In this document: in pieces, positions 35,501-46,739 of the stretch
How positions within the stretch are numbered: position 1 is the stretch's first letter
How the letters are laid out: every line of letters starts with the position of its first letter
Assembly (NCBI GenBank): GCA_018651925.1
Contig: JABIDC010000011.1
Location: 9,064-73,063 of the forward strand
DNA length: 64,000 nt
From: an archaeon
Lineage (GTDB): Archaea > Nanobdellota > Nanobdellia > Pacearchaeales > GW2011-AR1
Direction of reading: 5' to 3'
Made by a program: the position numbers and the translations under genes
The notes under the pieces: generated by a model
The model's database searches: none
Told to the model about the DNA's origin: nothing
The model's input: only the letters and a program-made list of their open reading frames with translations

Positions 35501-36469
35501 AGTATTCAAAATATTATCGTCTGCATAGTTCCTTAATTCAGCATTAGAAACAACGCTCAAAGAATCACTCTCTCCAGGAGTGGTAATATTTACCTCACAA
35601 GTAAATTCTTGAGATTCATTTAAAATTTTATTTTCACAATCACTTGCATTTATTTCCAAATTAGCTTTAATATTGAACACAACCATTTCAGAATAATAAG
35701 TTGTTTTATTTTCTTCATAAGTAGAAGAATCACAATATGAATGAGGGCAAGTTCCATTAAAATCAGTAATACTAATATTTGCATAATAAGTTCCCACATC
35801 ATTTAGGCTAGGAGTAAAATTAATCATCGAAGAAAGGTTATTTGTTTCAGCCACATTAAACCCAAAATCAAACAAAGAACAATTCTCATTTGCAGCTCTG
35901 CCACTCCAAGAAGCATGAGTACAAGTTGAATTAAAATTAACAGAGAAATTCAAAGGATAATGCTCTTCTTCATCAGTCCCATTAAGGAAATAATATTCAT
36001 TTTCATTATGGGACCAATTATAATGAGTTTCTATTTGACTAAATTCTGGATAGTCGTTTGTTGCATTAATTTGAAATTCAAAATCAGTAATAGTGTCATC
36101 TCCACTTGCATTATTTGCTTGTATCGGAATAACAAAAAAACCAGATTGATTATCATAAGTTGCATTAATTGTAAAATTGCCCGTAGTAGAATTTAAAAGC
36201 CTAATCCATTTTGAAACATCACTTTCAGAAACAGCATACGTTCCACTAGCATTTGTCCAATTAATTGGTTGGGTATCAATTGTAAAAGTAATCTCGCTAC
36301 TAAATCCACTAACATTTTTACTAAGATTATGAATATAATAAATATCTTCAGGAGCATGATAAATTACATCTGATCCAATCCATTGAACTCCATAAACAAA
36401 CCCCAAAAACAAAATCCCAAATATCAAAAAACTAAAAATAAATTTATTTTTTTTCGACCCCTTTTCCAT
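32531..36469 (-). CDS. 1312-aa surface protein of repeated cadherin/Ig-like modules, with signal peptide and C-terminal TM anchor
   Basis: An N-terminal hydrophobic signal. Repeated module starts read N.AP.(W/L/F) (NDYPEF, NHAPQW, INHAPVL). The protein is very Asn/Ser/Thr-rich. The C-terminal TM helix IYLYVFGSIAGIFILTIISYFY is followed by RRMK. Confidence 0.7.
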   Translation of the reverse strand: MEKGSKKNKFIFSFLIFGILFLGFVYGVQWIGSDVIYHAPEDIYYIHNLSKNVSGFSSEITFTIDTQPINWTNASGTYAVSESDVSKWIRLLNSTTGNFTINATYDNQSGFFVIPIQANNASGDDTITDFEFQINATNDYPEFSQIETHYNWSHNENEYYFLNGTDEEEHYPLNFSVNFNSTCTHASWSGRAANENCSLFDFGFNVAETNNLSSMINFTPSLNDVGTYYANISITDFNGTCPHSYCDSSTYEENKTTYYSEMVVFNIKANLEINASDCENKILNESQEFTCEVNITTPGESDSLSVVSNAELRNYADDNILNTSWFYALGSTSSSNFIKTVSINVTPSKNEVGNWSINLSVFDLSEVLYVDEEIFLQVNKNDSLEVNPVLSTISDVETSSDLETTINFEVFDNDLLIPDKNDSFGGYEETITFYLDILTSNSTVNETFNVVVDSMPVVEGNHFTNKTTAHVTFTPDSNETGTYSINLTIGDKAGTNVSQVFEIVILDNHAPQWDGLLNTSFLSYENGSLYLNLSLNASDSDNDALTFSYSLDDYLFPSMNMTNLGIVNMTFNDSDVGEHIVSISVSDGYLSNLTSFNFTVLNLVDDLSIIELDVVDALIAGDDSEINISEDDEGKIYLRVNDYDLLIPSNQSEKGFYNESFDFTISFVNYSSMLEVDLFNFTENREATTPTPFAPEDYQTRFDATFTPGKEHIGKYNVTINITDQGNASDLINFNLTINDINHAPVLDNLTNQTTGINRTWTYDINSTDVENGNDSSGNLVYSYNFLEGNDFISNNESLFNTSSGIFNLNFNSTHGGKYRINVTVNDSENLFTYDSFYLFVYDIPEIIFPSVSESFSLVENVSTNIIYSVNHSVLDDLTYLFYIENGSESFLKQNVTAFGNSTNNTWSFAPNFTDETYGEIFNLTMVAYPSNENLINSTDYNVTYSWDLVINHTNHNLTQSTSILDAIGGSPQVITLSNYFTDYDASDSYYNQSVRFVINSISGSGVSSSVINWVDGVTPSVTFTASSNSEARFSVTAYEYNSSDDSQILSNVTSNEFDVQLTISSPAASSSSSTRTVTKPVSLRLIMPDPISAFKKEKIVLPISLFNDGEINLKGIDLSGLVLKDNVSREDFNMTFSQIHFDTLLAGEEKNFTLTIDIDTESLGLYEITVLADIDDPEYKDWGKFYLTIEEDENVQERLLFTEEFVMENPECIELTELVNSAKDLLESGEIELAMQKINQAVDACKVAISQTSKLKEKAAADISIYLYVFGSIAGIFILTIISYFYRRMKLSKASLDFEAEKLKKGEKESI

Positions 36470-36512: not shown

Positions 36513-38579
36513 TCAAGGAAGTACTTTTTTCTCTTCATCTCCAAGACTTTTTTTAACCCGAACAATTTTAACAATTCTACTAATAATCAACGCCAGAAGT
36601 AAAATAATAAGTCCAATAAAAATGTATAAAGTCCCCTTTCTTTGTGCAAAAGGTTGTTCAACTTCACATTTCCAAGGGCAAGGACCTCCGCAATCAACCC
36701 CTTCTTCCTTTTGATTCTTAATTCCATCAGTACAAGTAGGACAAGCACCACAAGTACCCCCACAATCAATTAAAATCTCACAAGCACCATCATGACAATT
36801 CTTCAAACCATCTTCGCAAGAAGGATTTTCAGTATAATAACAAGATTGAATTTCAGCAGGCTTATTTGCCAAATAATTACACTCTAATAAATCCGTACAA
36901 GTCTTTAATTGAAAACCACAAAATCTTTCATCAAATCCCTGTTGTTCACATTCATATTGAATTAATCTATAATCTTCTCCTGCTAAAACTCCAAAATCTA
37001 AAGAATCTTTTGCATTTTGACAAACATCCCAATCTTCACAAATCCATTGAGGAGAACATCCGCCTCCGCCACCGCCTCCGCCAGAAGTAGCTCCTTCAGG
37101 ACAAGTAGACGCAAAAAGAATAACTTCCCATGCAAAAGAATCATTCAACAAACCGTCAGTAATCACAACTTCAATTTCATGCAATCCCGACAACCCACAA
37201 GAAAAGGCATAATTAAACGAATCTGTTAAATTCCCCGAAGCATAATCTTTTTGGACAGAATCAACATACCAATAAACATCTGGAATTGTGTGGTCTGGAT
37301 CATAAGTTGTAACATTTAATAAAATACTTTTTTCTCCAACTGCAATAAAAGTTTGATTTGGAAAGGAATCAATAATTGTTGGAGGCCGATTATCGTCTAC
37401 AACAGTAATTGTAAAATCCTCACACACAGAATTTGATAAACCAGTTTGATTACAATAAACTTCTATATCCTCATAAGGGTCAGGAAGTTCCATATCCATT
37501 GCACAAATAGAAACATTATGAATTCCGAGCGGAGTTGAATTATCTGCAGTAAAATCAATTATTCCGTCATTTGTCACCCCAAACAATTCTGGACCAGAAT
37601 TAAAACTAATATTAAAACTAATTTGAGGGGAATCTTCCATTCCACTTTCAGAGTCATTTACAGAAATGGTTTTATGCAAGGTGGCATTATCTCCCCGAGT
37701 GTAAACAGTTTGAACGCCAATTATTTCTTTTTCTAAAAGATCATTTATTTCAATTACAGTAATATTTGTTTGGATTGAGTCTACATTATTTCCATCGTCC
37801 ACACTAATATTTCTTAAATAAGTTCTAAAACTCCCTGCAAATCCTCCTGCCTGTTCCTCCGTTAATTCAGCGCTAGAAGCAAGATATGCCGTAGCATTTG
37901 AGTTTCCATAAATATACCCATAAATTAAATTCGGATTATACAAAGGATTATCTGTAGAAAAAATAGTTTGAGGATACATAAAAAATATTTCAGAAGGGGC
38001 AATACTTAAAGATAATTCATTTATATCCTCATCACTCACATTAAATTCATAAAACAAACTTTCCCCCTCACAAACATAAATTGAATCATTCAAATAAACT
38101 ACTGGCGCAGAATTACTTACATTAACAAAAAAAGTAACTTCTTCAGAATAAAGAACGTCTAAAGTAGAATTTGAATAAACATAAACCGTATTCAATCCCC
38201 TTTCTGCAATAAAAGTTATATTTGGAGAAAATGAAGAATTTTCAATAATCCACAAAGAAGATCTTTCATTCCAAACACTAAACCACCACTCGGCAGGCTC
38301 AAAGTTAAAAGGATGAACAGATAAATTTATTTCTAAATCTTCTGCCGGGAAAAAATCATAAGTTGTATTTAGAGGTTCAGTGATATTAATCCAAGCAGCA
38401 TCTTGAACCACCAAAGAAATTGTTGCACTCGTAAGTCCAGCATTACCTGTTAATTTAATTGCTGGAGAATCTTGTGAAAGTAAAAGGTAAGTATTTACCA
38501 TTGAGAACAAAATAAAAATAATAAGATAAAAAGCCAACTTAAATTCAAACGAAAAACCCTTTTTCTTCCTCTTTATCAT
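36513..38579 (-). CDS. 688-aa surface protein: Ig/cadherin-like modules, poly-Gly linker, C-terminal Cys-rich module and TM anchor
   Basis: N-terminal TM helix followed by KLTGN. Module starts read SNSAPVV and DDNRPPTI. TSGGGGGGGCSPQWICEDWDVC opens a Cys-rich region that ends with a C-terminal TM helix. Confidence 0.7.
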   Translation of the reverse strand: MIKRKKKGFSFEFKLAFYLIIFILFSMVNTYLLLSQDSPAIKLTGNAGLTSATISLVVQDAAWINITEPLNTTYDFFPAEDLEINLSVHPFNFEPAEWWFSVWNERSSLWIIENSSFSPNITFIAERGLNTVYVYSNSTLDVLYSEEVTFFVNVSNSAPVVYLNDSIYVCEGESLFYEFNVSDEDINELSLSIAPSEIFFMYPQTIFSTDNPLYNPNLIYGYIYGNSNATAYLASSAELTEEQAGGFAGSFRTYLRNISVDDGNNVDSIQTNITVIEINDLLEKEIIGVQTVYTRGDNATLHKTISVNDSESGMEDSPQISFNISFNSGPELFGVTNDGIIDFTADNSTPLGIHNVSICAMDMELPDPYEDIEVYCNQTGLSNSVCEDFTITVVDDNRPPTIIDSFPNQTFIAVGEKSILLNVTTYDPDHTIPDVYWYVDSVQKDYASGNLTDSFNYAFSCGLSGLHEIEVVITDGLLNDSFAWEVILFASTCPEGATSGGGGGGGGCSPQWICEDWDVCQNAKDSLDFGVLAGEDYRLIQYECEQQGFDERFCGFQLKTCTDLLECNYLANKPAEIQSCYYTENPSCEDGLKNCHDGACEILIDCGGTCGACPTCTDGIKNQKEEGVDCGGPCPWKCEVEQPFAQRKGTLYIFIGLIILLLALIISRIVKIVRVKKSLGDEEKKVLP

Positions 38580-38683: not shown

Positions 38684-39106
38684 ATGAATGACAAAATATT
38701 TGGACAATCATCTTGTATCGGAGGAACCTCTTGCAATTACACTCTCTTTAATGGAGTCTTTAAACCAAGAGAAGGCATTCTTAGAGGAATCTCTACAGAA
38801 GAAGCGAGAACGATGATTCAAGACAAATTACAAATAACCGAAGCTTCAGGATTAATTGCTTTAGCATTTGATAATCTAGAGGTTGGAAATGGAATAGAAA
38901 TTAGATCATTAGACAGAACAGAGACTTTTCCATTGACAGACTTTCAAAAAGCAGGATGTGCAAGAATAAGCGAAGTATTAAGTCAACTTAAATCATACGA
39001 AGAAAGATTTTATCAAGAAGGAACTGAAAGGTATTTGATAACAGATATTAATTTAGGATGTTGTGAAAAAAATGCTCAACAAGCAGGAACTTTTCATCTT
39101 TTCTAA
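38684..39106 (+). CDS. Hypothetical cytosolic protein
   Basis: A clean ORF with normal composition and no competing antisense ORF. No motif recognised. Confidence 0.5.
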   Translation: MNDKIFGQSSCIGGTSCNYTLFNGVFKPREGILRGISTEEARTMIQDKLQITEASGLIALAFDNLEVGNGIEIRSLDRTETFPLTDFQKAGCARISEVLSQLKSYEERFYQEGTERYLITDINLGCCEKNAQQAGTFHLF

Positions 39107-39109
39107 AGT

Positions 39110-39562
39110 TTAGTATATTAAAATAGCAAGAATGGAATCAATTTCTTCGAATCTTATTTTTCCATCATCAAAATTAACATTGTCTCCTTTTGTAATAAAA
39201 TAATCTCCAAATTCATCTTCACCTTTTTCAATAACCCTATGAACAATTAATTTCTCTCCATGATAAAAACTAATAATATCTCCGACGAAAATATCCTCTG
39301 AAGAATTCGGACGAATTCCGATACCATTTGCATTTGAATCGATTACCGGAACCATGCTTTTAGTTGAATTATATCTACTCACAACATAATTAGACAAATT
39401 AATTACAACTGAATCTTCATAAACTAAAATATTCTTTTCCTCAATAATGTTGTGTGGAGAGAATTCCTTGGCTACAAAACCAGTCAATTCAAAACCAGAA
39501 AAGAAAATTATTCCCAGCACAAAAATTATCAAAAGAATAATTATCTCAAATCGAGTTTTCAT
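39110..39562 (-). CDS. Signal peptidase I, Sec11/SipW (S26B) type
   Basis: N-terminal TM helix, the Ser box KSMVPVID (SM.P), the His box LIVHRVIE and the conserved TKGDNVNFDD (GDNN..D box). The start at MKTRF (39562) is preferred over the track start at 39649. Confidence 0.8.
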   Translation of the reverse strand: MKTRFEIIILLIIFVLGIIFFSGFELTGFVAKEFSPHNIIEEKNILVYEDSVVINLSNYVVSRYNSTKSMVPVIDSNANGIGIRPNSSEDIFVGDIISFYHGEKLIVHRVIEKGEDEFGDYFITKGDNVNFDDGKIRFEEIDSILAILIY

Positions 39563-39602
39563 AAAGAAAATTAACAAAAATGCCTTATAAAAATTATTAT
39601 AC

Positions 39603-40019
39603 TCAATGTTTTCCAATTCTAACAAACAAAGTTCCCGTATAAACCCCAAAAGGTTGATTCTCTATAACAATAGTTCCAATTGAAATTCTTTTGGATTCAT
39701 TAATTGGCAATTCAACTCTTTCCTCAAAAATTAAGAAATCAGTTATATTTCCTTTAACAAAAATATTCGCAAAAACTGGATAAGGATAAGAATTATTTAA
39801 AATTATGTCTCTTTGGGAACTTGATCCTTTACTAATTTCTCCCAAATTAAGTACAGAGCTCTCTAAATTAAAAGAAGTCTTATTTGAAATTTCGAGGATA
39901 ACTGGGACCTTAAGTTCTTCAAGATTATCTGTAGAGATAATATACATTGAAGAAAATAAAATAACTAAACTAATAATTAAAATACCAATTCCAAAATAAA
40001 GTTTATTTCTTTTTCTCAT
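39603..40019 (-). CDS. N-anchored small beta-sandwich (Ig-like) protein
   Basis: N-terminal TM helix followed by about 110 aa of alternating beta pattern (LNLGEISKGSSSQRDIILNNSYPYPV...VYTGTLFVRI). Its start overlaps the upstream gene by 17 nt. Confidence 0.55.
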   Translation of the reverse strand: MRKRNKLYFGIGILIISLVILFSSMYIISTDNLEELKVPVILEISNKTSFNLESSVLNLGEISKGSSSQRDIILNNSYPYPVFANIFVKGNITDFLIFEERVELPINESKRISIGTIVIENQPFGVYTGTLFVRIGKH

Positions 40020-41145
40020 TAATCTTCTTTCTTTTCTTTTTCAAGAAAATAAAAATTACCCCTCCAATAATTAAAATTGCAAGAATTACTGCTCCAATAA
40101 TTAAAGTTGTATTTGTTTTGCTAATAAATTCTACTTGAATTTGTTTACTTGCAGATTTCCCAACACTCTTTCCAAAATAAGAAACAGTTACATTTCCATA
40201 ATAGATTCCTTCTTCAAAAGAATTTGTATCAAAAAATCCACTAATTGTTTTTCGTTCCCAAGGAGATAAATCCGTAGTAGAAGTCTTAAAACTAATTTTC
40301 TCAGAATTATTTTCAAACAAAATTATTTCTGCACTCGCACCATCAATTTGATCATTCCAACCACTCTCAATATCAACTTCAAATACCCCATATCCCCCAA
40401 TTTCAATGATCTCGGTATAATTTAATATATCAATAGTCAAATCCCCGATTCTAAAATTTTTTGATTCGTTTGCAATTTTTGAACCATATGGAACAATTAA
40501 ATTTGCAAGATAATTCCCCGCATTATAATTTGTAGTGTCAAGAGATTTCTTTAATTCAATTCCTTCTTGGCTTCCCAATGTTCTTTCTTTCAAAATTAAA
40601 GTTTCCAACAACTTTCCAAAATTATCCTCAATCTCAATTCTTGGAGAAGCAACAATTGTTTTATCTCCTTGACTTTTCAAATTAATTTCAAAAGTAACTT
40701 CTTCCCCAACATTGACGTCAGGAGCAATTAAATGGGCATCCAAATATTCTCCAGGATAAGGGACATCAATAATTAATGCTAATCTTAAAGTAACAGTAGT
40801 TCCAACAGTTGAAGATAAAAGTTCTTCATCAACCGCTTCAGCAATTTGAACAACTAAACGATGTGGGCCAGGAAGATCAACTTTTTCCGGCATCTCGAGA
40901 GTTAAAATAAATGAATCTTCCCCGATTAATTTTTCTTTTGATAATTTAACATAAGGGGCAAAATATCCTTCGACAGAAACAAATAATTCAGTATCCGAAT
41001 CAATTGCAAAAGTAATGTATTCTATTTCCAAAGTTTTTCCAGCTTCAAAATTTACCATTTTCTTAGCAGGACTCGCTCCAAGAGCACTAGCAAAGCTCAT
41101 CAATGAAATAAACAACAAACAAAAAATCAAACCTCTTTTAATCAT
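40003..41145 (-). CDS. Exported three-domain Ig/CARDB-like protein with a C-terminal TM anchor (paralogue B)
   Basis: A signal peptide ending ASALGASP, with NFEAG, VGTTVTLRLALIIDVPYPGEYLD and a C-terminal TM helix followed by KKKRKK. It aligns along its whole length with 42042..43244. Confidence 0.65.
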   Translation of the reverse strand: MIKRGLIFCLLFISLMSFASALGASPAKKMVNFEAGKTLEIEYITFAIDSDTELFVSVEGYFAPYVKLSKEKLIGEDSFILTLEMPEKVDLPGPHRLVVQIAEAVDEELLSSTVGTTVTLRLALIIDVPYPGEYLDAHLIAPDVNVGEEVTFEINLKSQGDKTIVASPRIEIEDNFGKLLETLILKERTLGSQEGIELKKSLDTTNYNAGNYLANLIVPYGSKIANESKNFRIGDLTIDILNYTEIIEIGGYGVFEVDIESGWNDQIDGASAEIILFENNSEKISFKTSTTDLSPWERKTISGFFDTNSFEEGIYYGNVTVSYFGKSVGKSASKQIQVEFISKTNTTLIIGAVILAILIIGGVIFIFLKKKRKKINEKKK

Positions 41146-41188
41146 AAGTATTCTTGGGAAAATCTCCTTTTATAATTTACTAAAAAAA

Positions 41189-41797
41189 TTAAACAACTTC
41201 TGCAGTTGCAGTAATGATACTTCCTTTTGACCCAATTGGAACTCCTGTTTCAGGAATTCTTATATGAACATTAACATACAATTCATCTACCCCAGAAGCA
41301 GTTGTAAGGTTCCCACAATATAAAAATTCAGTTGTATTAATACTATTCCAAGTGTTACTATGAACCATTCCCCCAGAACAAGCTCCAGCATCTTTTTCAG
41401 TAACATTAACTTGGTAAAGAGCAGACGCACTTCCAATAAAACCTGCCGCATCATTACTTGCTTTCAAAGAAATATTTGCATTTTCATTTCCAGCATTTTC
41501 AATAACTAAAGGAGAACTAACAGCACTCCAACTTCCCCCAACAATTGTCCCATTAGTATAGAGGTCTGCATTTCCAGCACCAGGAGTTACATATCCAGTA
41601 CCCCAATCAACACTATCAGTAGTAAAATTAATTAATAAATTTGAAGCAACAGATAAATTAACATCTGCAGTGTCTGTAACTGCAAAACCAGTTAATTTCT
41701 CAACATCTTGAACTTTATTCACCGTAATTATTAAATTGAACATTGCTAAACCAACTGCCAAAACCGCAATAACCATTAAAACATTTGTTGATTTCAT
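41189..41797 (-). CDS. 202-aa exported Gly/Thr/Asn/Val-rich beta protein; candidate fibre or pilus-like subunit
   Basis: The N-terminus MKSTNVLMVIAVLAVGLAMFNLIITV...EKLTGFAVTDTADVNLSV is followed by beta-rich, low-charge sequence ending ...GSIITATAEVV. The LTG codons are at 41687..41695. Confidence 0.55.
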   Translation of the reverse strand: MKSTNVLMVIAVLAVGLAMFNLIITVNKVQDVEKLTGFAVTDTADVNLSVASNLLINFTTDSVDWGTGYVTPGAGNADLYTNGTIVGGSWSAVSSPLVIENAGNENANISLKASNDAAGFIGSASALYQVNVTEKDAGACSGGMVHSNTWNSINTTEFLYCGNLTTASGVDELYVNVHIRIPETGVPIGSKGSIITATAEVV

Positions 41798-42015
41798 TCT
41801 TGATTTTCAATAATATTCATTGGTGGCTCTTCCACAACCAATTGAACATTCCCATTTAAATTTCCTGAATCTATTACGGAAGAACTTTGAGGCTGACCAG
41901 TATCAAGATTCATTGTAACAACCACAGAACTAACAGACAACATAATCGTTATCAATAATAAAGTTACCACAACTTTTTCTCTCCTTACTTCCATAGCTTC
42001 CCAAGGAAAAATCAC
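41794..42015 (-). CDS. Small single-TM protein
   Basis: (M)EVRREKVVVTLLLITIMLSVSSVVVT. Its stop overlaps the next gene's start by 4 nt. Confidence 0.45.
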   Translation of the reverse strand: MIFPWEAMEVRREKVVVTLLLITIMLSVSSVVVTMNLDTGQPQSSSVIDSGNLNGNVQLVVEEPPMNIIENQE

Positions 42016-42041
42016 TTTATAAATATTATGTTGAGAAAAAA

Positions 42042-43244
42042 CTATTTTTTACGTCTCATAAATTTCCTAATTATTACGAACCACACAATATTTAGGACAA
42101 GCAAAACAACGATAACAATAATTAAAATGGTATTCCAATTGATATCCGAATCTCCCCCTCGAACAATTACCTGACCAGTAATCCCAATAACTTCTAATTC
42201 ATCACTGCTAATTTTTAGTTGAATATTTTTTTCAATCTCTCTATCTCCATACTTTAAAATTAATTTACCTTCGTAAGTTCCTGCAGAAACTCCTCCAGTA
42301 TCCCAATATGCAACTAGTTCTGATTTACTTAATCCAGAAAGATCATAATTCGGAGATTTAAAATCTGCCATAACTTCTCCTTCTTCATTGTACACAATAA
42401 TATTCAAATAAGAATCAGAAATTTGATCAGACCATTTATTTTCAATTAGTGCATTAAACTTAGCAATTTCCCCTAATTGAAAATCTTTAACCAAGACTTC
42501 TAAAATTTGTAAAGACATCTCTCCAATCAAAAATTCTTTTTCAATTTCAAAAACTTCATTATCATAAAAAACATTTACTTTTGCAAAATATTTTCCAGAA
42601 TTAATTTCTATGTTATCTAATCTTGCAACCAACTCTTTTCTTTCTAGACTTAAAAGAGATTGTTCATTTGTTTCGATAGTTGCAACTTTCTCGTTTAATG
42701 CAGTATAAATATCAATTGTAGCCCTTGCATTAACAATATCTAATTTTCCCCTGTTAGTTACAGGTATGGAAAAAATCGTCTCAGAATCAGATTCTAAAAC
42801 ATTTACTTCTCCGTCCAGATATTTGTTTGGATAAGGAACTTGGATATGTAATTGGGTAATCACTGCAACGGTTGCCCCAACAGTAGCACCAGCTTTTTCC
42901 AAGTCTTTGGGCAGTTCAAGTGCAACAATTTCAACCTCATATTTCCCAGGGTCTTCGATCTTTGAAGGAAGATTTACGGTATAGGTGAAGGATTTAGAAG
43001 CCTCTGTAGAAGAGAATTCAGCATATGCTTGATTCAAGGTCACAGTTTCGTTTAACTCTCCCCTAATCATTAAAACAACAGACATATCTTTATTCTCAGA
43101 ATTTAAAACAGAAAAAGAAACTTCTTTTTGTAAATTTGGTTCAAAATTAAGAGTTGTTCTTCCCGGAGTAATTCCCAAAGGAGAAACAAAATTCATTAAA
43201 ATAATTCCAACGAAAAGAAATAAAAATAATTTTTCTAATCTCAT
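42042..43244 (-). CDS. Exported three-domain Ig/CARDB-like protein with a C-terminal TM anchor (paralogue A)
   Basis: A signal peptide ending VSPLGITP, with NFEPN, VGATVAVITQLHIQVPYPNKYLD and a C-terminal TM helix followed by RKFMRRKK. Confidence 0.65.
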   Translation of the reverse strand: MRLEKLFLFLFVGIILMNFVSPLGITPGRTTLNFEPNLQKEVSFSVLNSENKDMSVVLMIRGELNETVTLNQAYAEFSSTEASKSFTYTVNLPSKIEDPGKYEVEIVALELPKDLEKAGATVGATVAVITQLHIQVPYPNKYLDGEVNVLESDSETIFSIPVTNRGKLDIVNARATIDIYTALNEKVATIETNEQSLLSLERKELVARLDNIEINSGKYFAKVNVFYDNEVFEIEKEFLIGEMSLQILEVLVKDFQLGEIAKFNALIENKWSDQISDSYLNIIVYNEEGEVMADFKSPNYDLSGLSKSELVAYWDTGGVSAGTYEGKLILKYGDREIEKNIQLKISSDELEVIGITGQVIVRGGDSDINWNTILIIVIVVLLVLNIVWFVIIRKFMRRKK

Positions 43245-43714
43245 TTTTGTTTTGCCTCATAAGTTTGATTTTCAGCAATCTTTTTTATTTGATTGACTCC
43301 TAAAATAAATCCTTCTTCTTCAGAAGTAATATTTAAATCAACATTTCCAGAATTAACAATTTCGTAAATTCCTTCGGTTTCAATTAAATTCAAAGAAACT
43401 TGGCTTTGAAGCGTAAAATTATTTATCCCGCTTTCCTTAAATTGATTTTTAACTTTCCAGAAATAAATTCCAGGAGCCAAAGTAACCTCTGTTTCAGGAT
43501 TTAAAATAATTGGATGAGTAAAATTATAATCAATAGATAAAATCACTTCTCTCGCATTTTCAATCTCAAAGACAAAATCCGAGTCAGCAATAGTCATCCC
43601 ACTTAGAGGATAAATTGGCGTAGGCATATTAAAAAAAAATAAATAAAGAATTGAAAATATAACAAAGAGCCCTTCAAAAACAAGAAACTTTTTTCCTAAT
43701 ATCCTCCTTCTCAT
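43241..43714 (-). CDS. N-anchored single Ig-like-domain protein
   Basis: A TM helix, then PLSGMTIADSDFVFEIENAREVILSIDYNF...GIYFWKV. The same P.(N/S)G......F.W....Y.L...G.Y.W.V module recurs in the giant protein. Confidence 0.5.
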   Translation of the reverse strand: MRRRILGKKFLVFEGLFVIFSILYLFFFNMPTPIYPLSGMTIADSDFVFEIENAREVILSIDYNFTHPIILNPETEVTLAPGIYFWKVKNQFKESGINNFTLQSQVSLNLIETEGIYEIVNSGNVDLNITSEEEGFILGVNQIKKIAENQTYEAKQK

Positions 43715-43759
43715 AAATAAAATAAATCAATTGTTCCTTATAAAATTATTGAACCAAAA

Positions 43760-45019
43760 TCACTTAGATTTTTTCTTGCTTGCAGGAAATAAAATTCTTC
43801 GAGTTAATTTTTCCCAGAAAGAGAAATGGAATTTTCTCATAACAAAGAAGACCGCAAAGATTAATATGATTAAAACTACTATTTTTACAAATAAATAATC
43901 TGAAGCAGAAAGAATATTCTCAATTGTTCCAATTTCTCCTCCAGGAGAAATGTCTGAATCAGTTGAAGAATCATTTTCTTCATCTCCATCATCTGTTGAA
44001 TCTGAACCTGAACTTGAGTCTGGTGCATAATAGGTATCATTTGATTCTTCCCCAGAAGAAACACAACAAATTAAAGAAACTCCATAATCTTCTGTACATC
44101 TCTCATCTGCAAATTCTTCACCATAATTAACATCTCCTTCAAGACAAGTAGATGCGCAAGTTCCGTTAACCTCTGAACAAGTTTTTCTAACAACAGTAGT
44201 TCCACCTCCAGAACCAGGACTATCTGTATCTTCATTCGGATCTTCACCGGAAGTACCCACACAACCACTTTTATCAAAAGAACAATCATCTTTACAAATT
44301 AAACTTCCTGTATCAAACCCTAAACTCACACAAGTTTCATCATTCAAATTATCTAAATCACATTCTTCGCCAGCATCAATTTGCCCATTTCCACAACTTG
44401 AAAACTCATAAGGAACACATTCAAATCCAAAATCCCCTTCTCCACAAACTTGAGTATCATCGCAAACTGGCCAACCAACATTTCCTTCACAATCTCCAGG
44501 ACAACCAGAACAACTTTCTCCTACATCGCAAACATCATTTCCACAATATTCTTCTACACATTCAGAACTACATCCATCTCCATCTTCAGTGTTTCCATCA
44601 TCACATTCTTCTCCAATTCCAACAATGTCATTTCCACAAGTATCAGACATACAACAAACATTTGCAGAAGAAATAATTGCATTTCCAGTAATTCCATTTT
44701 CAAGGATTACATCTCCAAGAATTCCTCCTATTTCATCCCCCTCAATACCCCCGGCAACACGCTCATAAACATCTTTATCATCAACATTAAGATCACAAGA
44801 ATAATCTATCTCATATTCTCCTACACTACAACTTGTTCTACAATTTCCACTATAAATTCCACAAGCAGTCCAAGAAGCTTGTCCAGTTAATTGCAATTTT
44901 CCTAAAAAAACATAATTTACAACAGAATTAAAACCATCAAAAAGAAAAAAACCAACAACACCGATTAGTAAAACAACTGCTAAAATTATCAACACTCGAA
45001 AAGTAGTTTTATTCTTCAT
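43760..45019 (-). CDS. Cys-rich surface protein with DUF4215 repeats (paralogue 3)
   Basis: Carries CGNDIVGIGEECDDGNTEDGDGCSSECVEEYCGNDVCDVGESC and CGNGQIDAGEECDL. The N-terminus resembles paralogue 1 and the C-terminus is nearly identical to paralogue 2. Confidence 0.72.
   Translation of the reverse strand: MKNKTTFRVLIILAVVLLIGVVGFFLFDGFNSVVNYVFLGKLQLTGQASWTACGIYSGNCRTSCSVGEYEIDYSCDLNVDDKDVYERVAGGIEGDEIGGILGDVILENGITGNAIISSANVCCMSDTCGNDIVGIGEECDDGNTEDGDGCSSECVEEYCGNDVCDVGESCSGCPGDCEGNVGWPVCDDTQVCGEGDFGFECVPYEFSSCGNGQIDAGEECDLDNLNDETCVSLGFDTGSLICKDDCSFDKSGCVGTSGEDPNEDTDSPGSGGGTTVVRKTCSEVNGTCASTCLEGDVNYGEEFADERCTEDYGVSLICCVSSGEESNDTYYAPDSSSGSDSTDDGDEENDSSTDSDISPGGEIGTIENILSASDYLFVKIVVLIILIFAVFFVMRKFHFSFWEKLTRRILFPASKKKSK
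43780..43960 (-). repeat. Partner copy of the 181-nt patch at 28054..28234
   Basis: See the partner entry. Flanking sequence on both sides is much more diverged. Confidence 0.9.
44512..44656 (-). repeat. Partner copy of the patch at 28831..28975
   Basis: See the partner entry. Confidence 0.85.
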
Positions 45020-45074: not shown

Positions 45075-46739
45075 CTATCTTAGTTCATTAATATCAATTG
45101 CTTGTGTCATCTGATATTTTGTCCTCGGTGAAGGCTTATTCAAACAACGTCCTTCATTACACCCATAAAAACATCTTGTGTTTGTAGAAATAATATTATT
45201 TCCATCACAACTAAATTGTTGAACATACTTTGCACTCCCAATCAAAATACAAGAATCACTTTCATTTCCATATTCACCATTATAATTAATTACATTACCT
45301 TGAACTTTTGAATTATCTTCAACATCAGTATCTTCGCATCCCATTGATTGATAAGTTACTTCTGCATAATTTGATTCATTAGTTACCTGATCAAACCTAT
45401 CTGTTGCACGAACATTAAATACATAATCTCCCCATTCTGAAATTCCCTCATAGACAGAAACATACTCTTCAAAGAAATCATCAAATGCCCCATCAATTGC
45501 AGAAGCAGTAATCCAAGAATTATCATTTACTCTAAATTCAACTTCTTCAATTGAATTAACAGTGCTATCTCTATAAGAAGGATTTATCGCACTAACAATA
45601 CCAGAATTCGCACTCCCATTAATTTCAAATTCTTCTCCAACAAGCCCTGCAAAATAATTATTAACAACAGGTTCAAAATCAACAATATCTAAAACCCCAT
45701 TTTCATTATCATCGGTCCATCCAATTTGTCCTCGAGCATAAATATCAACTAAACCATCTTCATAAGCCAATCCTTGATATTTCATGATGGAAGGTTCATC
45801 CAATAAACATTCATTAGCGCAATTTTCATTTACATAATTTAAATATCCCCCATCATAATTACATTGACAACCAGATTGAGCATATTCATCTTTTGCACCA
45901 AAAATATGCCCCATTTCATGGGCAAAAATATTATTCATATTCTCAATTCCAAAATAATTATTATCATAAGTCATAACTAAATAAGGATTATCTCCGTCAA
46001 GATTATATGTAGAAAAAGCAGAATAATTATCTGCAAATTTTCCCCCGTCATCATCATTTGTTGAATCTGCAACAAAAACTATAAATCCCCAATCAGTTCC
46101 TTGTTCAATTCTTTTATCATTAATTAAATCGTGCATTGGATCATAATAATTATTTTCTCCAGGAATATATATATATCCTAAAGCATCAATAGAGTGGGGG
46201 ATCCACCAAGATATCCCGGGATTCTCAATTGGCTCTTCTGGTATTTCAACCCTGTCATAAAAAGTAAAATTAAATTCTAAATTTGCATTAGGTTCTCTAT
46301 CTGTCCACCAATTAGCTCCCTCAATAATCATATTATGAACATTTGCAATTTCTTCATCTGTCCAGTTTTCAGAACCATCAATACTTTCAGGCAAAACAAC
46401 AATTACACTAACACTTCCAATCATATATTGATTAACATCTGTATCTCCAATCTCTTCTCCAGTAACTTTAGCTAAATTTGAAGTAGCATATTTTCCGCCA
46501 TAAGTATAATAATCTGCATAAGAAGTTGCACCCTTAGGTAAAAAATCTTTCAAAAAAGGATCATCCATTAAACTAACAACATCATTCAAAATATAATCTT
46601 CTCCTGCCCTATTATATTTATTCTTATCTAATTTCTTAAAAGAATTATCTGTAGACATTTGAACCTTTGCAACCGCCATAGGCATAACTAAAATAAGAAA
46701 CATTGCAACGAAAGCAAACACCTTTTTCATATTATTCAT
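45075..46739 (-). CDS. Secreted zinc metalloprotease, HExxH...DEY type (M6/M64-like), with a C-terminal Cys-rich domain
   Basis: A signal peptide (MKKVFAFVAMFLILVMPMAVA). The active site FAHEMGHIFGAKDEY resembles the HE.GH..G..DEY signature of the InhA (M6) and M64 families. The C-terminus holds 8 or more Cys. Confidence 0.65.
   Translation of the reverse strand: MNNMKKVFAFVAMFLILVMPMAVAKVQMSTDNSFKKLDKNKYNRAGEDYILNDVVSLMDDPFLKDFLPKGATSYADYYTYGGKYATSNLAKVTGEEIGDTDVNQYMIGSVSVIVVLPESIDGSENWTDEEIANVHNMIIEGANWWTDREPNANLEFNFTFYDRVEIPEEPIENPGISWWIPHSIDALGYIYIPGENNYYDPMHDLINDKRIEQGTDWGFIVFVADSTNDDDGGKFADNYSAFSTYNLDGDNPYLVMTYDNNYFGIENMNNIFAHEMGHIFGAKDEYAQSGCQCNYDGGYLNYVNENCANECLLDEPSIMKYQGLAYEDGLVDIYARGQIGWTDDNENGVLDIVDFEPVVNNYFAGLVGEEFEINGSANSGIVSAINPSYRDSTVNSIEEVEFRVNDNSWITASAIDGAFDDFFEEYVSVYEGISEWGDYVFNVRATDRFDQVTNESNYAEVTYQSMGCEDTDVEDNSKVQGNVINYNGEYGNESDSCILIGSAKYVQQFSCDGNNIISTNTRCFYGCNEGRCLNKPSPRTKYQMTQAIDINELR

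What the first reader, a model, noticed from the sequence alone, without database searches (positions are those of the whole stretch)
39110..43714. Seven-gene operon ending in a Sec11/SipW-type signal peptidase: candidate ATPase-independent surface-fibre or adhesion system
All seven ORFs are on the minus strand with coupled junctions. The overlaps are 4 nt at 43244/43241, 4 nt at 41797/41794 and 17 nt at 40019/40003, and the other gaps are about 26-43 nt.

Contents, in transcription order:
- a 157-aa N-anchored Ig-like protein;
- a 400-aa exported protein and, further down, its 380-aa paralogue. Both share the G[IA][TS]P...NFE start, VG[AT]TV, VPYP[NG][KE]YLD, and a C-terminal TM helix with a Lys/Arg tail;
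- a single-TM protein of about 70 aa;
- a 202-aa Gly/Thr/Asn/Val-rich beta-type protein with only two Cys;
- a 138-aa N-anchored Ig-like protein;
- an S26B signal peptidase with SMVP, IVHRV and TKGDNVNFDD boxes.

The window contains no PilB/FlaI-type ATPase, no PilC/FlaJ platform protein and no prepilin peptidase. The known cases where an S26B peptidase sits in an operon with its fibre substrate are Bacillus tapA-sipW-tasA and TasA-like archaeal pili. Those polymerise by donor-strand complementation without an ATPase. The architecture here differs, with two large membrane-anchored Ig-repeat paralogues and small anchored Ig proteins. I do not recognise it as a described system.
Basis: partly seen in the sequence, partly recalled or inferred. 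Interest (0 to 1): 0.78.

Follow-up and report, generated by a model that had tools for sequence, protein, structure and literature searches.

The report
DPANN surface adhesin-anchoring gene cluster
The seven genes are real and form the centre of a larger, apparently undescribed gene cluster conserved across Woese-/Pacearchaeota-type DPANN archaea, which most likely ties a giant adhesin to the cell membrane through pilin-like domains; this makes it a candidate for how these tiny symbionts attach to hosts.

Summary
All seven minus-strand ORFs, their overlaps, the B/E paralogy and the Sec11-type peptidase boxes are confirmed. The unit is larger than reported. In 76 related loci, all labelled DPANN apart from two probably mis-binned contigs, the order is: giant protein, A, B, (C-D) x0-4, E, F, (G), H, I, MoxR, DUF58, VWA.

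New findings:
- The 202-aa protein D models confidently (pLDDT 92). Its best PDB fold matches, all weak, are almost all donor-strand fibre subunits: cannulae, FimG/F/A, Caf1, Csu and the Sulfolobus thread.
- The giant upstream protein ends in a D-like domain (hhalign 99%, E 4e-18).
- The ~66-aa protein C is a membrane-tethered copy of D's N-terminal strand, and it co-occurs with D.
- B/E are WxLIP-like three-Ig proteins with a C-terminal anchor. F is a PapD/ASH-like domain.
- The peptidase is in only 10 of 43 assessable loci.
- A MoxR AAA+ ATPase is conserved downstream.

Best reading (confidence 0.45): a strand-complementation surface assembly that anchors or extends a giant adhesin. It is a new variant of known kinds (Tafi/TasA-type pili, Gram-positive WxL clusters), not a peptidase-defined fibre operon. 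Polymerisation is untested.

The parts
46853..58924 (-). Giant surface protein (4023 aa): N-terminal TM helix, then an LTG motif, then adhesin-type domains (DUF285, Laminin_G_3, beta-helix, LVIVD, Big_13).
   Evidence: ORF. Pfam domains. TM helix and LTG motif. A large protein in the equivalent position is present in 56 of 62 assessable related loci.
46856..47593 (-). C-terminal D-like domain of the giant protein (residues ~3778-4023), with no TM helix after it.
   Evidence: The iterated D-family HMM gives E 1.4e-36 on residues 3778-4023. hhalign of the D family against the giant C-terminal family gives probability 99.0%, E 3.9e-18 over 141 columns. A clean small-D HMM hits the extreme C-termini of upstream large proteins in 12 loci at E 2e-7 to 5e-13.
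45075..46739 (-). 554-aa secreted protein with weak reprolysin/M64-like Zn-metalloprotease matches. It is a lineage-specific insert between the giant gene and A.
   Evidence: Pfam hits are weak and below cut-off. The gene is present in the closest relative (JGI contig) but absent between the giant gene and A in most loci.
43760..45019 (-). 419-aa Cys-rich protein with N- and C-terminal TM helices. It is a paralogue of 28025-29314 and 26094-27461, so these paralogues flank the cluster.
   Evidence: TIGR02232 Cys-rich repeat at E 2.8e-7. 57% amino-acid and 78% nucleotide identity to 28025-29314.
43737..43744 (-). TATA-like box TTTATAAG, with its 5' end 30 nt upstream of the A start codon.
   Evidence: The motif occurs only 20 times on this strand in 64 kb.
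43241..43714 (-). A: 157-aa N-anchored beta-rich protein, translationally coupled to B (4-nt overlap). It carries the L-x-N-x-G-N-V-x-L-N-V motif also seen in D-like domains.
   Evidence: Present in 63 of 67 assessable loci. No Pfam or PDB sequence match, so the fold is not established.
42042..43244 (-). B: signal peptide, three beta-sandwich domains and a C-terminal TM helix with a Lys/Arg tail. It is WxLIP-like, with PapD/ASH-like Ig domains.
   Evidence: AF2 pLDDT 87.9. Pfam WxLIP_HBD at E 7e-7, above its cut-off, and matched by 86 of 121 family members. Foldseek: E. faecium WxLIP 9i25_C at E 1.4e-9, and ASH-repeat proteins at E 5e-12. The 120 best of 324 homologues found are 52-93% identical, and every source name they carry is archaeal or DPANN.
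42016..42023 (-). TATA-like box TTTATAAA 29 nt upstream of the C ATG (41994), preceded by a T6 run directly after the B stop codon.
41794..41994 (-). C: ~66-aa micro-protein made of an N-terminal TM helix, a variable linker and one beta-strand (G-N-V-x-L-x-I-E). The strand is a tethered copy of D's N-terminal strand. Its stop codon overlaps the D start codon.
   Evidence: hhalign of C against the D N-terminus gives 91.6%, E 8e-7. Per-locus C/D pairs with -4/-1 junctions are listed. C co-occurs with D: 29 of 33 D-containing loci against 0 of 8 D-less loci, Fisher p 5e-6.
41189..41797 (-). D: 202-aa subunit. It has an N-terminal TM/signal helix, an LTG motif, a conserved alternating strand (TGTANLTIES consensus), and a beta-sandwich with one conserved Cys pair. 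A T7 run follows its stop codon.
   Evidence: AF2 pLDDT 91.9; residues ~36-55 are not in a strand. Most of the top Foldseek PDB hits are donor-strand fibre subunits, all with weak E-values (E 3e-3 or worse). 2265 cluster representatives at E<=1e-3. Present in 0-4 copies per locus. T-run.
40003..41145 (-). E: 380-aa paralogue of B (signal peptide, Ig repeats, C-terminal TM helix with Lys tail).
   Evidence: BLASTP of B against E gives E 9e-37. A second B/E paralogue is present in 45 of 54 assessable loci.
39603..40019 (-). F: 138-aa N-anchored single PapD/ASH-like Ig domain, overlapping the E stop codon by 17 nt.
   Evidence: The F-family profile hits Hydin, FAP65 and CEP192 ASH domains in PDB sequences (E 7e-7 to 1e-3). 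hhalign of B against F gives 90.5%. F co-occurs with D: 26 of 33 against 0 of 8, p 7e-5.
39584..39591 (-). TATA-like box TTTATAAG 29 nt upstream of the G ATG (39562).
39110..39562 (-). G: 150-aa S26B (Sec11/SipW-type) signal peptidase I. It is divergent, has one N-terminal TM helix, and carries the Ser (SMVP), His (IVHRV) and GDN..DD boxes.
   Evidence: TIGR02228 at E 2e-8, below cut-off. Aligns to SEC11A/C. NCBI annotates it only as a hypothetical protein. Present in only 10 of 43 assessable related loci.
36513..38579 (-). H: 688-aa surface protein with an N-terminal TM helix, an LTG motif followed by a strand, a Cys-rich C-terminal region and a C-terminal TM helix.
   Evidence: Orthologues in related loci, present in 25 of 41 assessable. 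Homologous to I (hhalign 100%).
32531..36469 (-). I: 1312-aa surface protein, a paralogue of H, with N- and C-terminal TM helices.
   Evidence: Present in 22 of 37 assessable loci.
31193..32506 (-). MoxR-type AAA+ ATPase (AAA_3 plus AAA_lid_2), predicted cytoplasmic.
   Evidence: Pfam E 1.4e-57. Follows I in the JGI contig, L001, L003, L005 and many GTDB loci.
30246..31196 (-). DUF58 protein, the usual partner of MoxR.
   Evidence: Pfam E 4.9e-40. Follows MoxR in L057, L061, L062, L065 and L077.
29323..30246 (-). Membrane VWA protein with a BatA-like N-terminus.
   Evidence: Pfam VWA_2 at E 1.4e-15; BatA N-terminal domain is weak. TM helices. In L002 and L017 the VWA gene directly follows E.
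28025..29314 (-). 429-aa Cys-rich paralogue of 43760-45019, marking the downstream edge of the block.

Best explanation
The seven ORFs are the central part of a surface-assembly locus of about 15 genes that is conserved across Woese-/Pacearchaeota-type DPANN archaea.

Its organising element is a pilin-like beta-sandwich, the 'D domain'. This domain occurs in two forms: as the free ~200-aa subunit D, and as the last domain of the giant adhesin encoded upstream.

Proposed mechanism (inferred):
1. The proteins are exported by Sec.
2. Their N-terminal signal anchors are cut near a lineage-typical [LIV][TS]G motif. The cut is made by the housekeeping signal peptidase, or by the extra Sec11-type paralogue G where it is present.
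3. D domains are then joined to partners by beta-strand complementation. Each subunit's conserved N-terminal strand (alternating hydrophobic residues ending in Glu: hydrophobic-x-hydrophobic-x-I-E) would fill the next D domain's sheet.
4. This gives a chain running from the giant adhesin (tip), through zero to many D subunits (stalk or fibre), to a membrane tether.

Candidate tethers and holders:
- the micro-protein C, which is a TM helix plus a copy of D's donor strand;
- the C-terminally anchored WxLIP-like Ig-repeat proteins B and E;
- the small anchored Ig proteins A and F (F is PapD/ASH-like).

H, I and the MoxR-DUF58-VWA genes are a second, tightly linked module. Its role is not resolved; it may mature or activate the surface proteins.

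Shown: gene content, homologies, fold similarities and conservation. Inferred: cleavage, strand exchange, polymer length, and who binds whom.
For: Conservation:
- The same gene order occurs in 76 non-redundant loci, all labelled archaeal or DPANN except two short contigs binned as Methanosarcinales, which are probably mis-binned.
- Frequencies among assessable loci: A 63/67, upstream large protein with D-like C-terminus 56/62, second B/E paralogue 45/54, D 44/59.
- B is 52-65% identical across the phylum.

D as a fibre-type subunit:
- The AF2 model has pLDDT 91.9. Residues ~36-55, the conserved 'TGTANLTI' strand, are not paired in the monomer.
- Out of 350,542 PDB chains, the best Foldseek matches are almost all donor-strand fibre subunits. 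They include the Pyrodictium cannula subunit 9h8b (E 3e-3, TM 0.57), FimG/FimF/FimA, PapA/PapE, Caf1, Csu, CS pili, CanA and the Saci_0406 thread.

Adhesin link:
- The giant protein ends in a D-like domain. This matches tip adhesins such as FimH, and TafC as modelled in PMC11821415 (a pilin-like domain plus a laminin-G-like domain).

Tethered strand:
- C is a TM helix plus a single strand homologous to D's N-terminal strand.
- C is translationally coupled to D and is strictly co-distributed with it.

Anchors and holders:
- B/E are WxLIP-like. [quoted passage not shown]
- F is PapD/ASH-like.

Expression:
- C-D has its own TATA-like box and a T7 terminator-like run after D. This fits an abundant structural subunit.

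Variation:
- D is the variable, duplicated component (0-4 copies, 30-46% identity), while B is conserved. This is the pattern expected for exposed against buried parts.
Against: - No oligomer prediction or experiment was possible, so strand exchange is inferred.
- All Foldseek E-values for D are weak (3e-3 or worse) and TM-scores are 0.3-0.57.
- D has no sequence or profile similarity to TasA/Peptidase_M73, to WxL, or to any PDB pilin.
- The N-terminal 'strand after LTG' layout is shared by many proteins here (A, H, I, the giant). It could simply be the first strand of ordinary Ig domains.
- Eight of 41 loci lack C, D and F altogether, so a D fibre cannot be the essential function of the cluster.
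- The giant protein also has an N-terminal TM helix that may stay uncleaved, in which case it needs no docking domain.
- The roles of A, H, I and MoxR-DUF58-VWA are unexplained.
Confidence: 0.45

Rival explanations
1. A WxL-type docking complex with no polymer. B and E (WxLIP homologues) non-covalently hold D-domain proteins on the membrane. This mirrors Gram-positive Csc/WxL clusters, which contain a large WxL protein with a C-terminal docking domain, a small WxL protein that is only the docking domain, and a C-terminally anchored WxLIP. In this reading D is a small docking-domain protein (a filler, regulator or competitor), not a fibre subunit.
For: - B matches Pfam WxLIP_HBD above its cut-off, as do 86 of 121 family members.
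- Foldseek matches B to E. faecium WxLIP (9i25_C, 'bound to long WxL', E 1.4e-9).
- The architecture corresponds one-to-one: the docking domain is always C-terminal in the large protein, a small protein consists of that domain alone, and the interacting protein has a signal peptide, Ig domains and a C-terminal TM helix (PMC10599100; PMC9772566).
- Loci without D still keep the giant protein, A, B and E.
Against: - No WxL domain (PF13731) or DUF916 match was found in D, the giant protein or B.
- The WxL chain of 9i25 is not among D's top 50 fold matches, which are pilins instead.
- Archaea of this group lack peptidoglycan, the proposed WxL ligand (my own knowledge).
- This reading does not explain C (a tethered single strand) or why D is duplicated up to four times.
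Confidence: 0.25
2. One reading: a self-contained, ATPase-independent TasA/SipW-like fibre operon. The dedicated S26B peptidase G matures the major subunit D, which homopolymerises into long fibres. The other five genes are accessories.
For: - G has intact Ser/His/Asp boxes and sits in the cluster in the window and its closest relatives.
- Dedicated SPase I genes accompany TasA, AbpX and Tafi subunits (PMC9245690; 10.64898/2026.01.04.697558). Deleting tafD abolishes Tafi (PMC11821415).
- D has pilin-like fold matches.
- The window contains no type IV pilus genes.
Against: - G is present in only 10 of 43 assessable loci and is not associated with D (8/33 against 1/8, p 0.66).
- D is absent from 8 of 41 loci that keep the rest of the cluster.
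- No member of the D family matches Peptidase_M73/TasA, and a D-family profile finds no PDB chain by sequence at all, at E up to 10.
- The conserved unit extends to the giant adhesin, H, I and a MoxR ATPase.
- The seven genes appear to be at least four transcription units.
Confidence: 0.12
3. A co-located set of cell-envelope proteins with no strand complementation. Examples would be components of the cell coat or S-layer-like envelope, plus a Bat-like MoxR-DUF58-VWA module, kept together for co-regulation. In this reading the Ig-like similarities are generic.
For: - Ig-like and CARDB-like domains are ubiquitous in archaeal envelope proteins. B also matches S-layer, transglutaminase and RbmA Ig domains.
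- D-family members give only weak, generic Pfam hits such as NPCBM_assoc and Cep192_D3.
- B is unusually conserved for an adhesin-associated protein, which suits a housekeeping envelope role.
- MoxR-DUF58-VWA (Bat) operons are widespread, and their function is not established (PMC3557215; PMC5700661).
Against: - It does not explain why the same D domain appears both alone and at the extreme C-terminus of the neighbouring giant protein in 56 of 62 loci.
- It does not explain C as a tethered copy of D's strand.
- It does not explain why D's fold matches are pilins rather than generic Ig domains.
- It does not explain the tight coupling of A/B, C/D and E/F.
Confidence: 0.15

Closest known systems
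Haloarchaeal Tat-fimbriae (Tafi; tafA-G) and related TasA-superfamily archaeal donor-strand pili (AbpA/ABP, AbpX, cannulae CanA/CanX, Sulfolobus 0406 threads)
   Same: - A locus built from a small beta-sandwich subunit with an N-terminal strand, and a tip protein that carries adhesin-type domains (LamG) plus a subunit-like domain.
- A membrane-anchored protein with Ig-like ectodomains, proposed as the anchor (TafF).
- A locus-encoded S26-type signal peptidase I (TafD; the SPase I next to abpX).
- No type IV pilus ATPase.
- D's best fold match is a cannula subunit, and the thread subunit is also in the list.
- Sources: PMC11821415, PMC12337348, 10.1101/2024.12.30.630787, 10.64898/2026.01.04.697558.
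   Different: - No detectable sequence or profile relationship between D and Peptidase_M73/TasA or any solved pilin.
- Secretion is Sec-type, not Tat.
- No DUF5305 accessory protein was seen.
- The peptidase is small (one TM helix) and optional (10/43 loci).
- Extra parts have no Tafi/Abp counterpart: two WxLIP-like paralogues, the tethered-strand micro-protein C, a PapD/ASH-like F, H/I, and MoxR-DUF58-VWA.
- The adhesin is giant (up to >4000 aa), with the D-like domain at its C-terminus.
- The published archaeal surveys I read place these families in Thermoproteota and in the euryarchaeal lineages (Halobacteriales, Archaeoglobales, Thermococcales; Methanobacteriota in GTDB terms), and none of them mentions DPANN.
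Gram-positive WxL / Csc cell-surface clusters (small WxL, large WxL, WxLIP = DUF916-DUF3324-TM, small LPXTG protein)
   Same: - B/E share the WxLIP_HBD domain, the overall plan (signal peptide, tandem Ig domains, C-terminal TM helix) and fold similarity to solved WxLIP.
- The cluster logic is the same: a docking domain that is always C-terminal in the large protein, a small protein consisting of that domain alone, and small anchored proteins alongside.
- A beta-strand of WxLIP is predicted to insert into WxL (PMC10599100; PMC9772566; PMC1534035).
   Different: - D and the giant C-terminal domain are not WxL domains: no WxL motifs and no PF13731 hit.
- No DUF916 domain was detected, and B has three Ig domains, not two.
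- There is no sortase or LPXTG protein.
- There is no peptidoglycan to bind.
- The archaeal locus has two WxLIP-like paralogues per locus, plus MoxR-DUF58-VWA.
Bacterial chaperone-usher pili (Fim, Pap, Caf, Csu)
   Same: - D's fold matches are dominated by CU subunits (FimG, FimF, FimA, PapA, PapE, Caf1, CsuA/B).
- F and the B domains are PapD/ASH-like Ig domains.
- The adhesin has a C-terminal pilin-like domain, as in FimH.
- Subunits share an N-terminal alternating-hydrophobic strand.
   Different: - There is no usher and no outer membrane.
- The PapD-like proteins are membrane-tethered and are not two-domain soluble chaperones of the PapD family by sequence.
- The resemblance is structural or analogous; homology is not shown.
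Bacillus tapA-sipW-tasA operon
   Same: - An S26B (Sec11-like) peptidase is encoded next to exported beta-rich proteins.
- An accessory protein (TapA) supplies a strand to start TasA fibres (PMC10151520). This is the role I propose for C.
   Different: - D is not a TasA/camelysin family member by sequence.
- C is a 66-aa TM peptide, not a TapA homologue.
- The peptidase is dispensable for the cluster in most relatives.
Bat-type MoxR-DUF58-VWA operons (Bacteroides, Leptospira, Borrelia)
   Same: The same trio, in the same order, of a MoxR AAA_3 ATPase, DUF58 and a membrane VWA protein with a BatA-like N-terminus (PMC3557215; PMC5700661).
   Different: - No BatC, BatD or BatE matches.
- Here the trio is fused to a surface-adhesin cluster and preceded by two very large Ig-rich membrane proteins (H, I).

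Membership tests
S26B signal peptidase I (Sec11 / SipW / archaeal SPase I) | Catalytic Ser box (S-M-x-P), His box (H-R) and G-D-N...D box in the right order, following an N-terminal TM helix | tested here: met
   SMVP, IVHRV and TKGDNVNFDD are present. The His and GDN boxes align to SEC11A/C. TM helix at residues 34-52 of the long ORF.
S26B signal peptidase I (Sec11 / SipW / archaeal SPase I) | Score at or above the curated family cut-off (TIGR02228 equivalog) | tested here: not met
   34.3 bits against a cut-off of 51.85 (E 2e-8). SipW model NF046067: 18.6 against 190. G is therefore a divergent member, and NCBI calls it a hypothetical protein.
S26B signal peptidase I (Sec11 / SipW / archaeal SPase I) | Dedicated (second) copy as opposed to the genome's only SPase I | not testable with these tools
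   Only a 64-kb window is available. Indirect evidence: G is absent from 33 of 43 assessable related loci, 25 of which still encode D, so those genomes must process these proteins with another enzyme.
TasA superfamily donor-strand filaments (TasA, AbpA, AbpX, CanA/X, 0406 thread, Tafi) | Subunit detectably homologous to Peptidase_M73/TasA or to a solved member, by sequence or profile | tested here: not met
   None of 120 D-family members hits PF12389 at E<=0.1. A D-family profile against all PDB chain sequences gives no hit at E<=10. An HHpred-grade search against these families could not be run.
TasA superfamily donor-strand filaments (TasA, AbpA, AbpX, CanA/X, 0406 thread, Tafi) | Subunit fold similar to solved donor-strand subunits | tested here: inconclusive
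   The top Foldseek hit is the cannula subunit 9h8b (E 3e-3, TM 0.45/0.57). CanA 7uii and thread 7pnb are also listed. All hits are weaker than E 1e-3.
TasA superfamily donor-strand filaments (TasA, AbpA, AbpX, CanA/X, 0406 thread, Tafi) | Free N-terminal donor strand on the mature subunit after SPase I cleavage | tested here: inconclusive
   A conserved alternating strand (A-N-L-T-I-E) follows the LTG(F)A motif. It is not in a beta-strand in the AF2 monomer, where pLDDT is 60-77. Cleavage is not shown.
TasA superfamily donor-strand filaments (TasA, AbpA, AbpX, CanA/X, 0406 thread, Tafi) | Polymerisation by donor-strand complementation | not testable with these tools
Gram-positive WxL / Csc cluster | WxLIP protein: signal peptide, DUF916 (PGBD), DUF3324 (HBD) and a C-terminal TM helix | tested here: inconclusive
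   The HBD is met: PF11797 at 29.6 bits against a cut-off of 28.9, matched by 86 of 121 members, with Foldseek 9i25_C at E 1.4e-9. The signal peptide and C-terminal TM helix are met. DUF916 is not detected in any member, and B has three Ig domains instead of two.
Gram-positive WxL / Csc cluster | At least two WxL-domain proteins (dual Trp-x-Leu motif, PF13731) in the cluster | tested here: not met
   No PF13731 hit in D or in the giant protein. Only an analogous arrangement of a different domain is present.
Chaperone-usher pili | Outer-membrane usher and a soluble two-domain PapD-family chaperone | tested here: not met
   No usher or PapD_N/PapD_C Pfam hit in any cluster protein. Only ASH/PapD-like fold-level similarity for F and B.
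Type IV pili / archaella | PilB/FlaI ATPase, PilC/FlaJ platform, prepilin peptidase, and a class III signal peptide on the subunit | tested here: not met
   None of these was found in any window ORF scanned. The D-family N-termini do not keep a Gly/Ala/Ser at the would-be -1 position; for example, P0004 has MKL|TN. The rest of the genome was not seen.
Bat-type MoxR-DUF58-VWA module | Adjacent MoxR (AAA_3), DUF58 and membrane VWA genes | tested here: met
   E 1.4e-57, 4.9e-40 and 1.4e-15 respectively. The BatA N-terminal domain is weak, at 4e-4. The module is conserved downstream of I in related loci.

The most novel reading that the evidence does not exclude
This locus encodes the conserved host-attachment organelle of Woese-/Pacearchaeota DPANN archaea. 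It would be an archaeal counterpart of chaperone-usher pili, tethered to the cytoplasmic membrane. In this reading PapD/ASH-like anchored proteins (B, E, F) hold pilin-like D subunits. A 66-aa membrane peptide (C) supplies the terminating or initiating donor strand. A giant adhesin rides on the tip through its C-terminal D domain. A MoxR-VWA module primes the assembly. This would link Gram-positive WxL complexes, CU pili and archaeal strand-donation pili in one mechanistic class.
Probability: 0.2. Interest if true: 0.85.

Novelty: new variant of a known kind. Interest (0 to 1): 0.62.

Why it matters
Woese-/Pacearchaeota are among the most abundant and least understood DPANN archaea. Almost none are cultivated, and how they attach to host cells is an open question.

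This cluster is present in most related genomes sampled. It has one very conserved component (B, 52-65% identity) next to hypervariable giant adhesins. That gives concrete, testable candidates for the attachment apparatus.

It would also extend strand-complementation surface assemblies (Tafi, TasA and chaperone-usher types) and WxLIP-type anchors to DPANN. In addition, it offers a minimal natural 'tethered donor strand' protein (C) for mechanistic study.

All of these genes are currently annotated as hypothetical proteins.

Tried and rejected
- **D as a type IV pilin.** Rejected. There is no conserved class III cleavage motif and no type IV pilus genes in the window.
- **D as a TasA/camelysin family member.** No Pfam hit in 120 members. 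No PDB sequence hit with a single sequence or with a profile.
- **D or the giant C-terminus as a WxL domain.** No PF13731 hit.
- **A.** No Pfam or PDB sequence relative, with single sequences or a 60-sequence profile. Its fold is left open.
- **Prior description of the cluster.** Full-text searches using DPANN/Woesearchaeota terms combined with MoxR, DUF58, VWA, signal peptidase, giant surface protein, donor strand and TasA-like found nothing relevant. The 2026 Nanobdellota complete-genome preprint does not mention these genes. The library is incomplete, so this is absence of evidence only.
- **Counting SPase I genes in the source genome.** Not possible from a 64-kb window.
- **Multimer or donor-strand modelling.** Not available.
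- **The plus-strand ORF 38684-39106.** No hit in Pfam, NCBIfam, PADLOC, PHROGs or PDB.
- **Rfam and tRNA scans of the window.** Empty.
- **B against E labels in the neighbourhood table.** The iterated HMMs for B and E converge, so those labels are not reliable. I counted 'two paralogues' instead.

Full report
**1. The observation**

- B and E are true paralogues, 29% identical over 394 aa with E 9e-37. The quoted motifs are present.
- G has the SMVP, IVHRV and TKGDNVNFDD boxes. It matches the archaeal signal peptidase I model TIGR02228 (E 2e-8), but below its cut-off. It aligns to the His and GDN boxes of human SEC11A/C.
- The likely start codons are the ATG at 39562 for G (150 aa) and the ATG at 41994 for C (66 aa), as in the NCBI records MBT4258241.1 and MBT4258245.1.
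- All of these genes are annotated 'hypothetical protein' in an 'archaeon' MAG, locus tags HOD88_03615-03640.
- The window is about 30% G+C. It carries archaeal housekeeping genes: aIF2-gamma, aIF5B, Kae1, TruD, GluRS and gyrase.
- No type IV pilus ATPase, platform protein or prepilin peptidase was found in any ORF I scanned.

**2. It is bigger than seven genes and is probably several transcripts**

Homologues of D and B lie in the same order in independent contigs. BLASTP shows orthologues of A, B, C, D, E, F, G and of the next genes, the 688-aa protein H, the 1312-aa protein I and a MoxR ATPase.

In the window the block continues with H (36513-38579), I (32531-36469), MoxR AAA_3 (E 1.4e-57), DUF58 (E 4.9e-40) and a membrane VWA/BatA-like protein.

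A scan of GTDB species representatives with a B-family profile returned 73 loci. All are labelled Nanoarchaeota, Woesearchaeota, Pacearchaeota or unclassified DPANN. Two short contigs binned as Methanosarcinales are probably mis-binned.

Profile searches of all ORFs in 76 non-redundant loci give this consensus order: large protein, A, B, (C-D) x0-4, E, F, (G), H, I, MoxR, DUF58, VWA.

Frequencies among loci with enough sequence:

| Component | Present / assessable |
|---|---|
| A | 63/67 |
| Upstream large protein with D-like C-terminus | 56/62 |
| Second B/E paralogue | 45/54 |
| Small D | 44/59 |
| C | 36/59 |
| F | 28/47 |
| H | 25/41 |
| I | 22/37 |
| G | 10/43 |

C and F track D (Fisher p 5e-6 and 7e-5). 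G does not (p 0.66). These tests ignore phylogenetic non-independence.

Within the window, the strict motif T[TA]TATAA[AG] occurs only 20 times on the minus strand. It nevertheless lies exactly 29-30 nt upstream of the A, C and G start codons, with a variant 31 nt upstream of E. T6 and T7 runs directly follow the B and D stop codons. I infer units A-B | C-D | E-F | G rather than one operon.

**3. What the parts are**

*D.*
- A profile built from divergent members found 275 homologues at 30-46% identity. An exhaustive profile search found 2265 cluster representatives, and nearly all of the 150 best listed are ~200 aa.
- The consensus reads: N-terminal hydrophobic helix, 'LTGFA', then 'TDTGTANLTIES', then a beta-rich domain with two invariant Cys.
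- AlphaFold2 with 120 sequences gives pLDDT 91.9. It shows a TM helix at residues 3-28, no regular structure at ~36-55 (pLDDT 60-77), and eight strands from residue 56 to 201.
- Foldseek against 350,542 PDB chains gives only weak E-values (3e-3 or worse). Almost all of the top 14 hits, and most of the top 50, are subunits of donor-strand-complemented fibres. These include the Pyrodictium cannula subunit 9h8b (TM 0.57 on the target), FimG, FimF, FimA, PapA, PapE, Caf1, CsuA/B, CS17/CS20/CFA-I, CanA 7uii and the Sulfolobus 0406 thread.
- There is no sequence-level link to TasA/Peptidase_M73 or to WxL, nor to any PDB chain.

*The giant protein.*
- It is 4023 aa and contains DUF285, Laminin_G_3, beta-helix, LVIVD and Big_13 domains. 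It ends in a D-like domain.
- A clean small-D HMM hits the extreme C-termini of the upstream proteins in 12 loci (E 2e-7 to 5e-13).
- The iterated HMM hits 53 loci and the window protein at residues 3778-4023 (E 1.4e-36).
- Profile-profile alignment of the two families gives 99.0% probability and E 3.9e-18 over 141 columns.
- No TM helix follows this domain.

*B and E.*
- B models (pLDDT 87.9) as a signal peptide, three beta-sandwich domains, a short linker and a C-terminal TM helix.
- It passes the Pfam WxLIP_HBD cut-off, and 86 of 121 family members match that model.
- By fold it matches ASH/PapD-like repeats (E 5e-12) and solved E. faecium WxLIP, including the entry 'bound to long WxL' (9i25_C, E 1.4e-9).
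- DUF916 is not detected.
- B is unusually conserved: 52-65% identity among the 120 best of 324 homologues found.

*F.* Its family profile hits Hydin, FAP65 and CEP192 ASH (PapD-like) domains among PDB sequences (E 7e-7 to 1e-3). hhalign links F to B at 90.5%.

*C.*
- It is a TM helix, a variable 15-30-residue linker, one strand 'G-N-V-x-L-x-I-E-x-P' and a short tail.
- hhalign aligns its helix and strand to D's helix and 'TGTANLTI' strand (91.6%, E 8e-7).
- Its stop codon overlaps the D start codon in most loci.

*A.* It has an N-terminal anchor and the L-x-N-x-G-N-V-x-L-N-V motif seen in D-like domains. It has no database match.

*H and I.* They are paralogues with TM helices at both ends.

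*A shared motif.* An [LIV][TS]G motif 10-20 residues after the N-terminal helix occurs in the giant protein, A, D, G, H, I, three Cys-rich paralogues and one unrelated exported protein. I read this as the lineage's usual signal-peptidase site. L at -3 and G at -1 are acceptable to Sec11-type enzymes; this last point is from my own knowledge.

**4. How it most likely works**

*Shown:*
- The same pilin-like domain exists free (D) and at the end of the neighbouring giant adhesin.
- The locus also encodes membrane-anchored WxLIP/PapD-like Ig proteins and a tethered copy of D's N-terminal strand.
- D is variable and duplicated, while B is conserved.

*Inferred:*
1. After Sec export and cleavage, D domains are joined by beta-strand complementation.
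2. This gives a chain from adhesin (tip), through 0 to n D subunits, to a membrane tether (C and/or B, E, A).
3. F and the B/E domains hold subunits the way PapD-like chaperones do.
4. G is an auxiliary processing enzyme in some lineages.

The loci that lack C, D and F but keep the giant protein, A, B, E, H, I and MoxR argue that anchoring the giant protein is the core function. The D stalk or fibre would then be an add-on.

My confidence in this strand-complementation assembly is 0.45. Nothing here shows polymerisation.

**5. Rivals**
- *(a) WxL-type docking complex without a polymer (0.25).* It has the best support on the B/E side, but it does not explain C or the pilin-like fold matches of D.
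- *(c) Co-located envelope proteins without strand exchange (0.15).* It does not explain the shared D domain or C.

**6. Comparison with known systems**

*Closest by mechanism and layout: archaeal strand-donation pili.*
- In Tafi, TafC is the modelled tip (LamG plus a pilin-like domain), TafE an adaptor, TafA the major subunit and TafF a membrane anchor. The dedicated SPase I TafD is required for TafA processing (PMC11821415; PMC12337348).
- abpX loci encode an SPase I, minor subunits and tip proteins (10.64898/2026.01.04.697558).
- The TasA superfamily was surveyed across archaea in 10.1101/2024.12.30.630787.

*Closest by demonstrable homology: the Gram-positive WxLIP protein of WxL/Csc clusters.* Their logic (large protein with a C-terminal docking domain, small protein made of that domain alone, anchored Ig protein predicted to insert a strand) is mirrored here with a different docking domain (PMC10599100; PMC9772566; PMC1534035).

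*The MoxR-DUF58-VWA trio* is the Bat-type module, whose function is not established (PMC3557215; PMC5700661).

Membership fails for the TasA family (sequence), for WxL clusters (no WxL domain), for CU pili (no usher) and for type IV pili. The resemblance is therefore at the level of 'works like', not 'is a member of'.

**7. Novelty and verdict**

I found no description of this cluster, and all of its genes are annotated as hypothetical. I rate it a new variant of a known kind. It is a DPANN-wide surface assembly combining WxLIP-like anchors, a new pilin-like domain family, a tethered-strand micro-protein, an optional Sec11-type peptidase and a MoxR-VWA module.

Interest is 0.62. It gives concrete candidates for DPANN host attachment, but the mechanism is unproven and the components belong to recognisable classes.

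Noticed in passing
window 38580-39109 (plus-strand ORF 38684-39106): A ~530-bp stretch sits between the peptidase gene and H and carries a 140-aa ORF on the opposite strand. In L001, L005 and the JGI contig, H follows the peptidase after only ~35 nt, so this is a lineage-specific insertion. The ORF has no hit in Pfam, NCBIfam, PADLOC, PHROGs or PDB sequences.
   Followed up: partly
window 43760-45019, 28025-29314 and 26094-27461: Three Cys-rich paralogues have N- and C-terminal TM helices and match myxo_disulf_rpt/DUF4215-type repeats. Two of them flank the A-to-VWA block in the same orientation. They are 57% identical at the amino-acid level and 78% at the nucleotide level over 929 bp, with nearly identical C-terminal tails.
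   Followed up: partly
window: N-termini of ORFs at 58924, 45019, 43714, 41797, 39562, 38579, 36469, 29314, 27461 and 7051 (all minus strand): A recurrent [LIV][TS]G motif (mostly LTG) lies 10-20 residues after the N-terminal hydrophobic helix of many exported proteins. It is possibly the lineage's signal-peptidase site. The spacing from the helix is unusually long for a Sec signal peptide.
   Followed up: partly
window 45075-46739: A 554-aa secreted protein has weak reprolysin/M64-like Zn-metalloprotease matches. It is inserted between the giant adhesin gene and the cluster only in this sublineage (it is also in the JGI relative). It could process the adhesin.
   Followed up: no
L003/L004 (archaeon GW2011_AR13 lineage) 10001-21194: This relative has two nearly identical tandem C-D pairs. 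It has no separate A gene (B starts 2 nt after the giant gene ends) and no peptidase gene in the cluster.
   Followed up: partly
L017 6131-13900 and L002 5383-6303: A rearranged version of the cluster: the VWA gene directly follows E, and F, G, DUF58, MoxR and I lie inverted downstream. The two modules stay linked despite the rearrangement, which argues for a functional connection.
   Followed up: no
L021 and L035: Two short contigs carrying this DPANN cluster are binned in MAGs labelled 'uncultured Methanosarcinales archaeon'. This is probably mis-binning.
   Followed up: no
L050 5775-8260, L053 4587-7690: Up to three or four tandem, diverged copies of the small D gene occur in one locus, reminiscent of major/minor pilin sets or antigenic variation.
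   Followed up: no
window 13155-16453: A MacB/FtsX-type ABC exporter (two permease genes plus an ATPase) lies on the minus strand, 12 kb from the edge of the cluster. No link to the cluster was seen in related loci.
   Followed up: no
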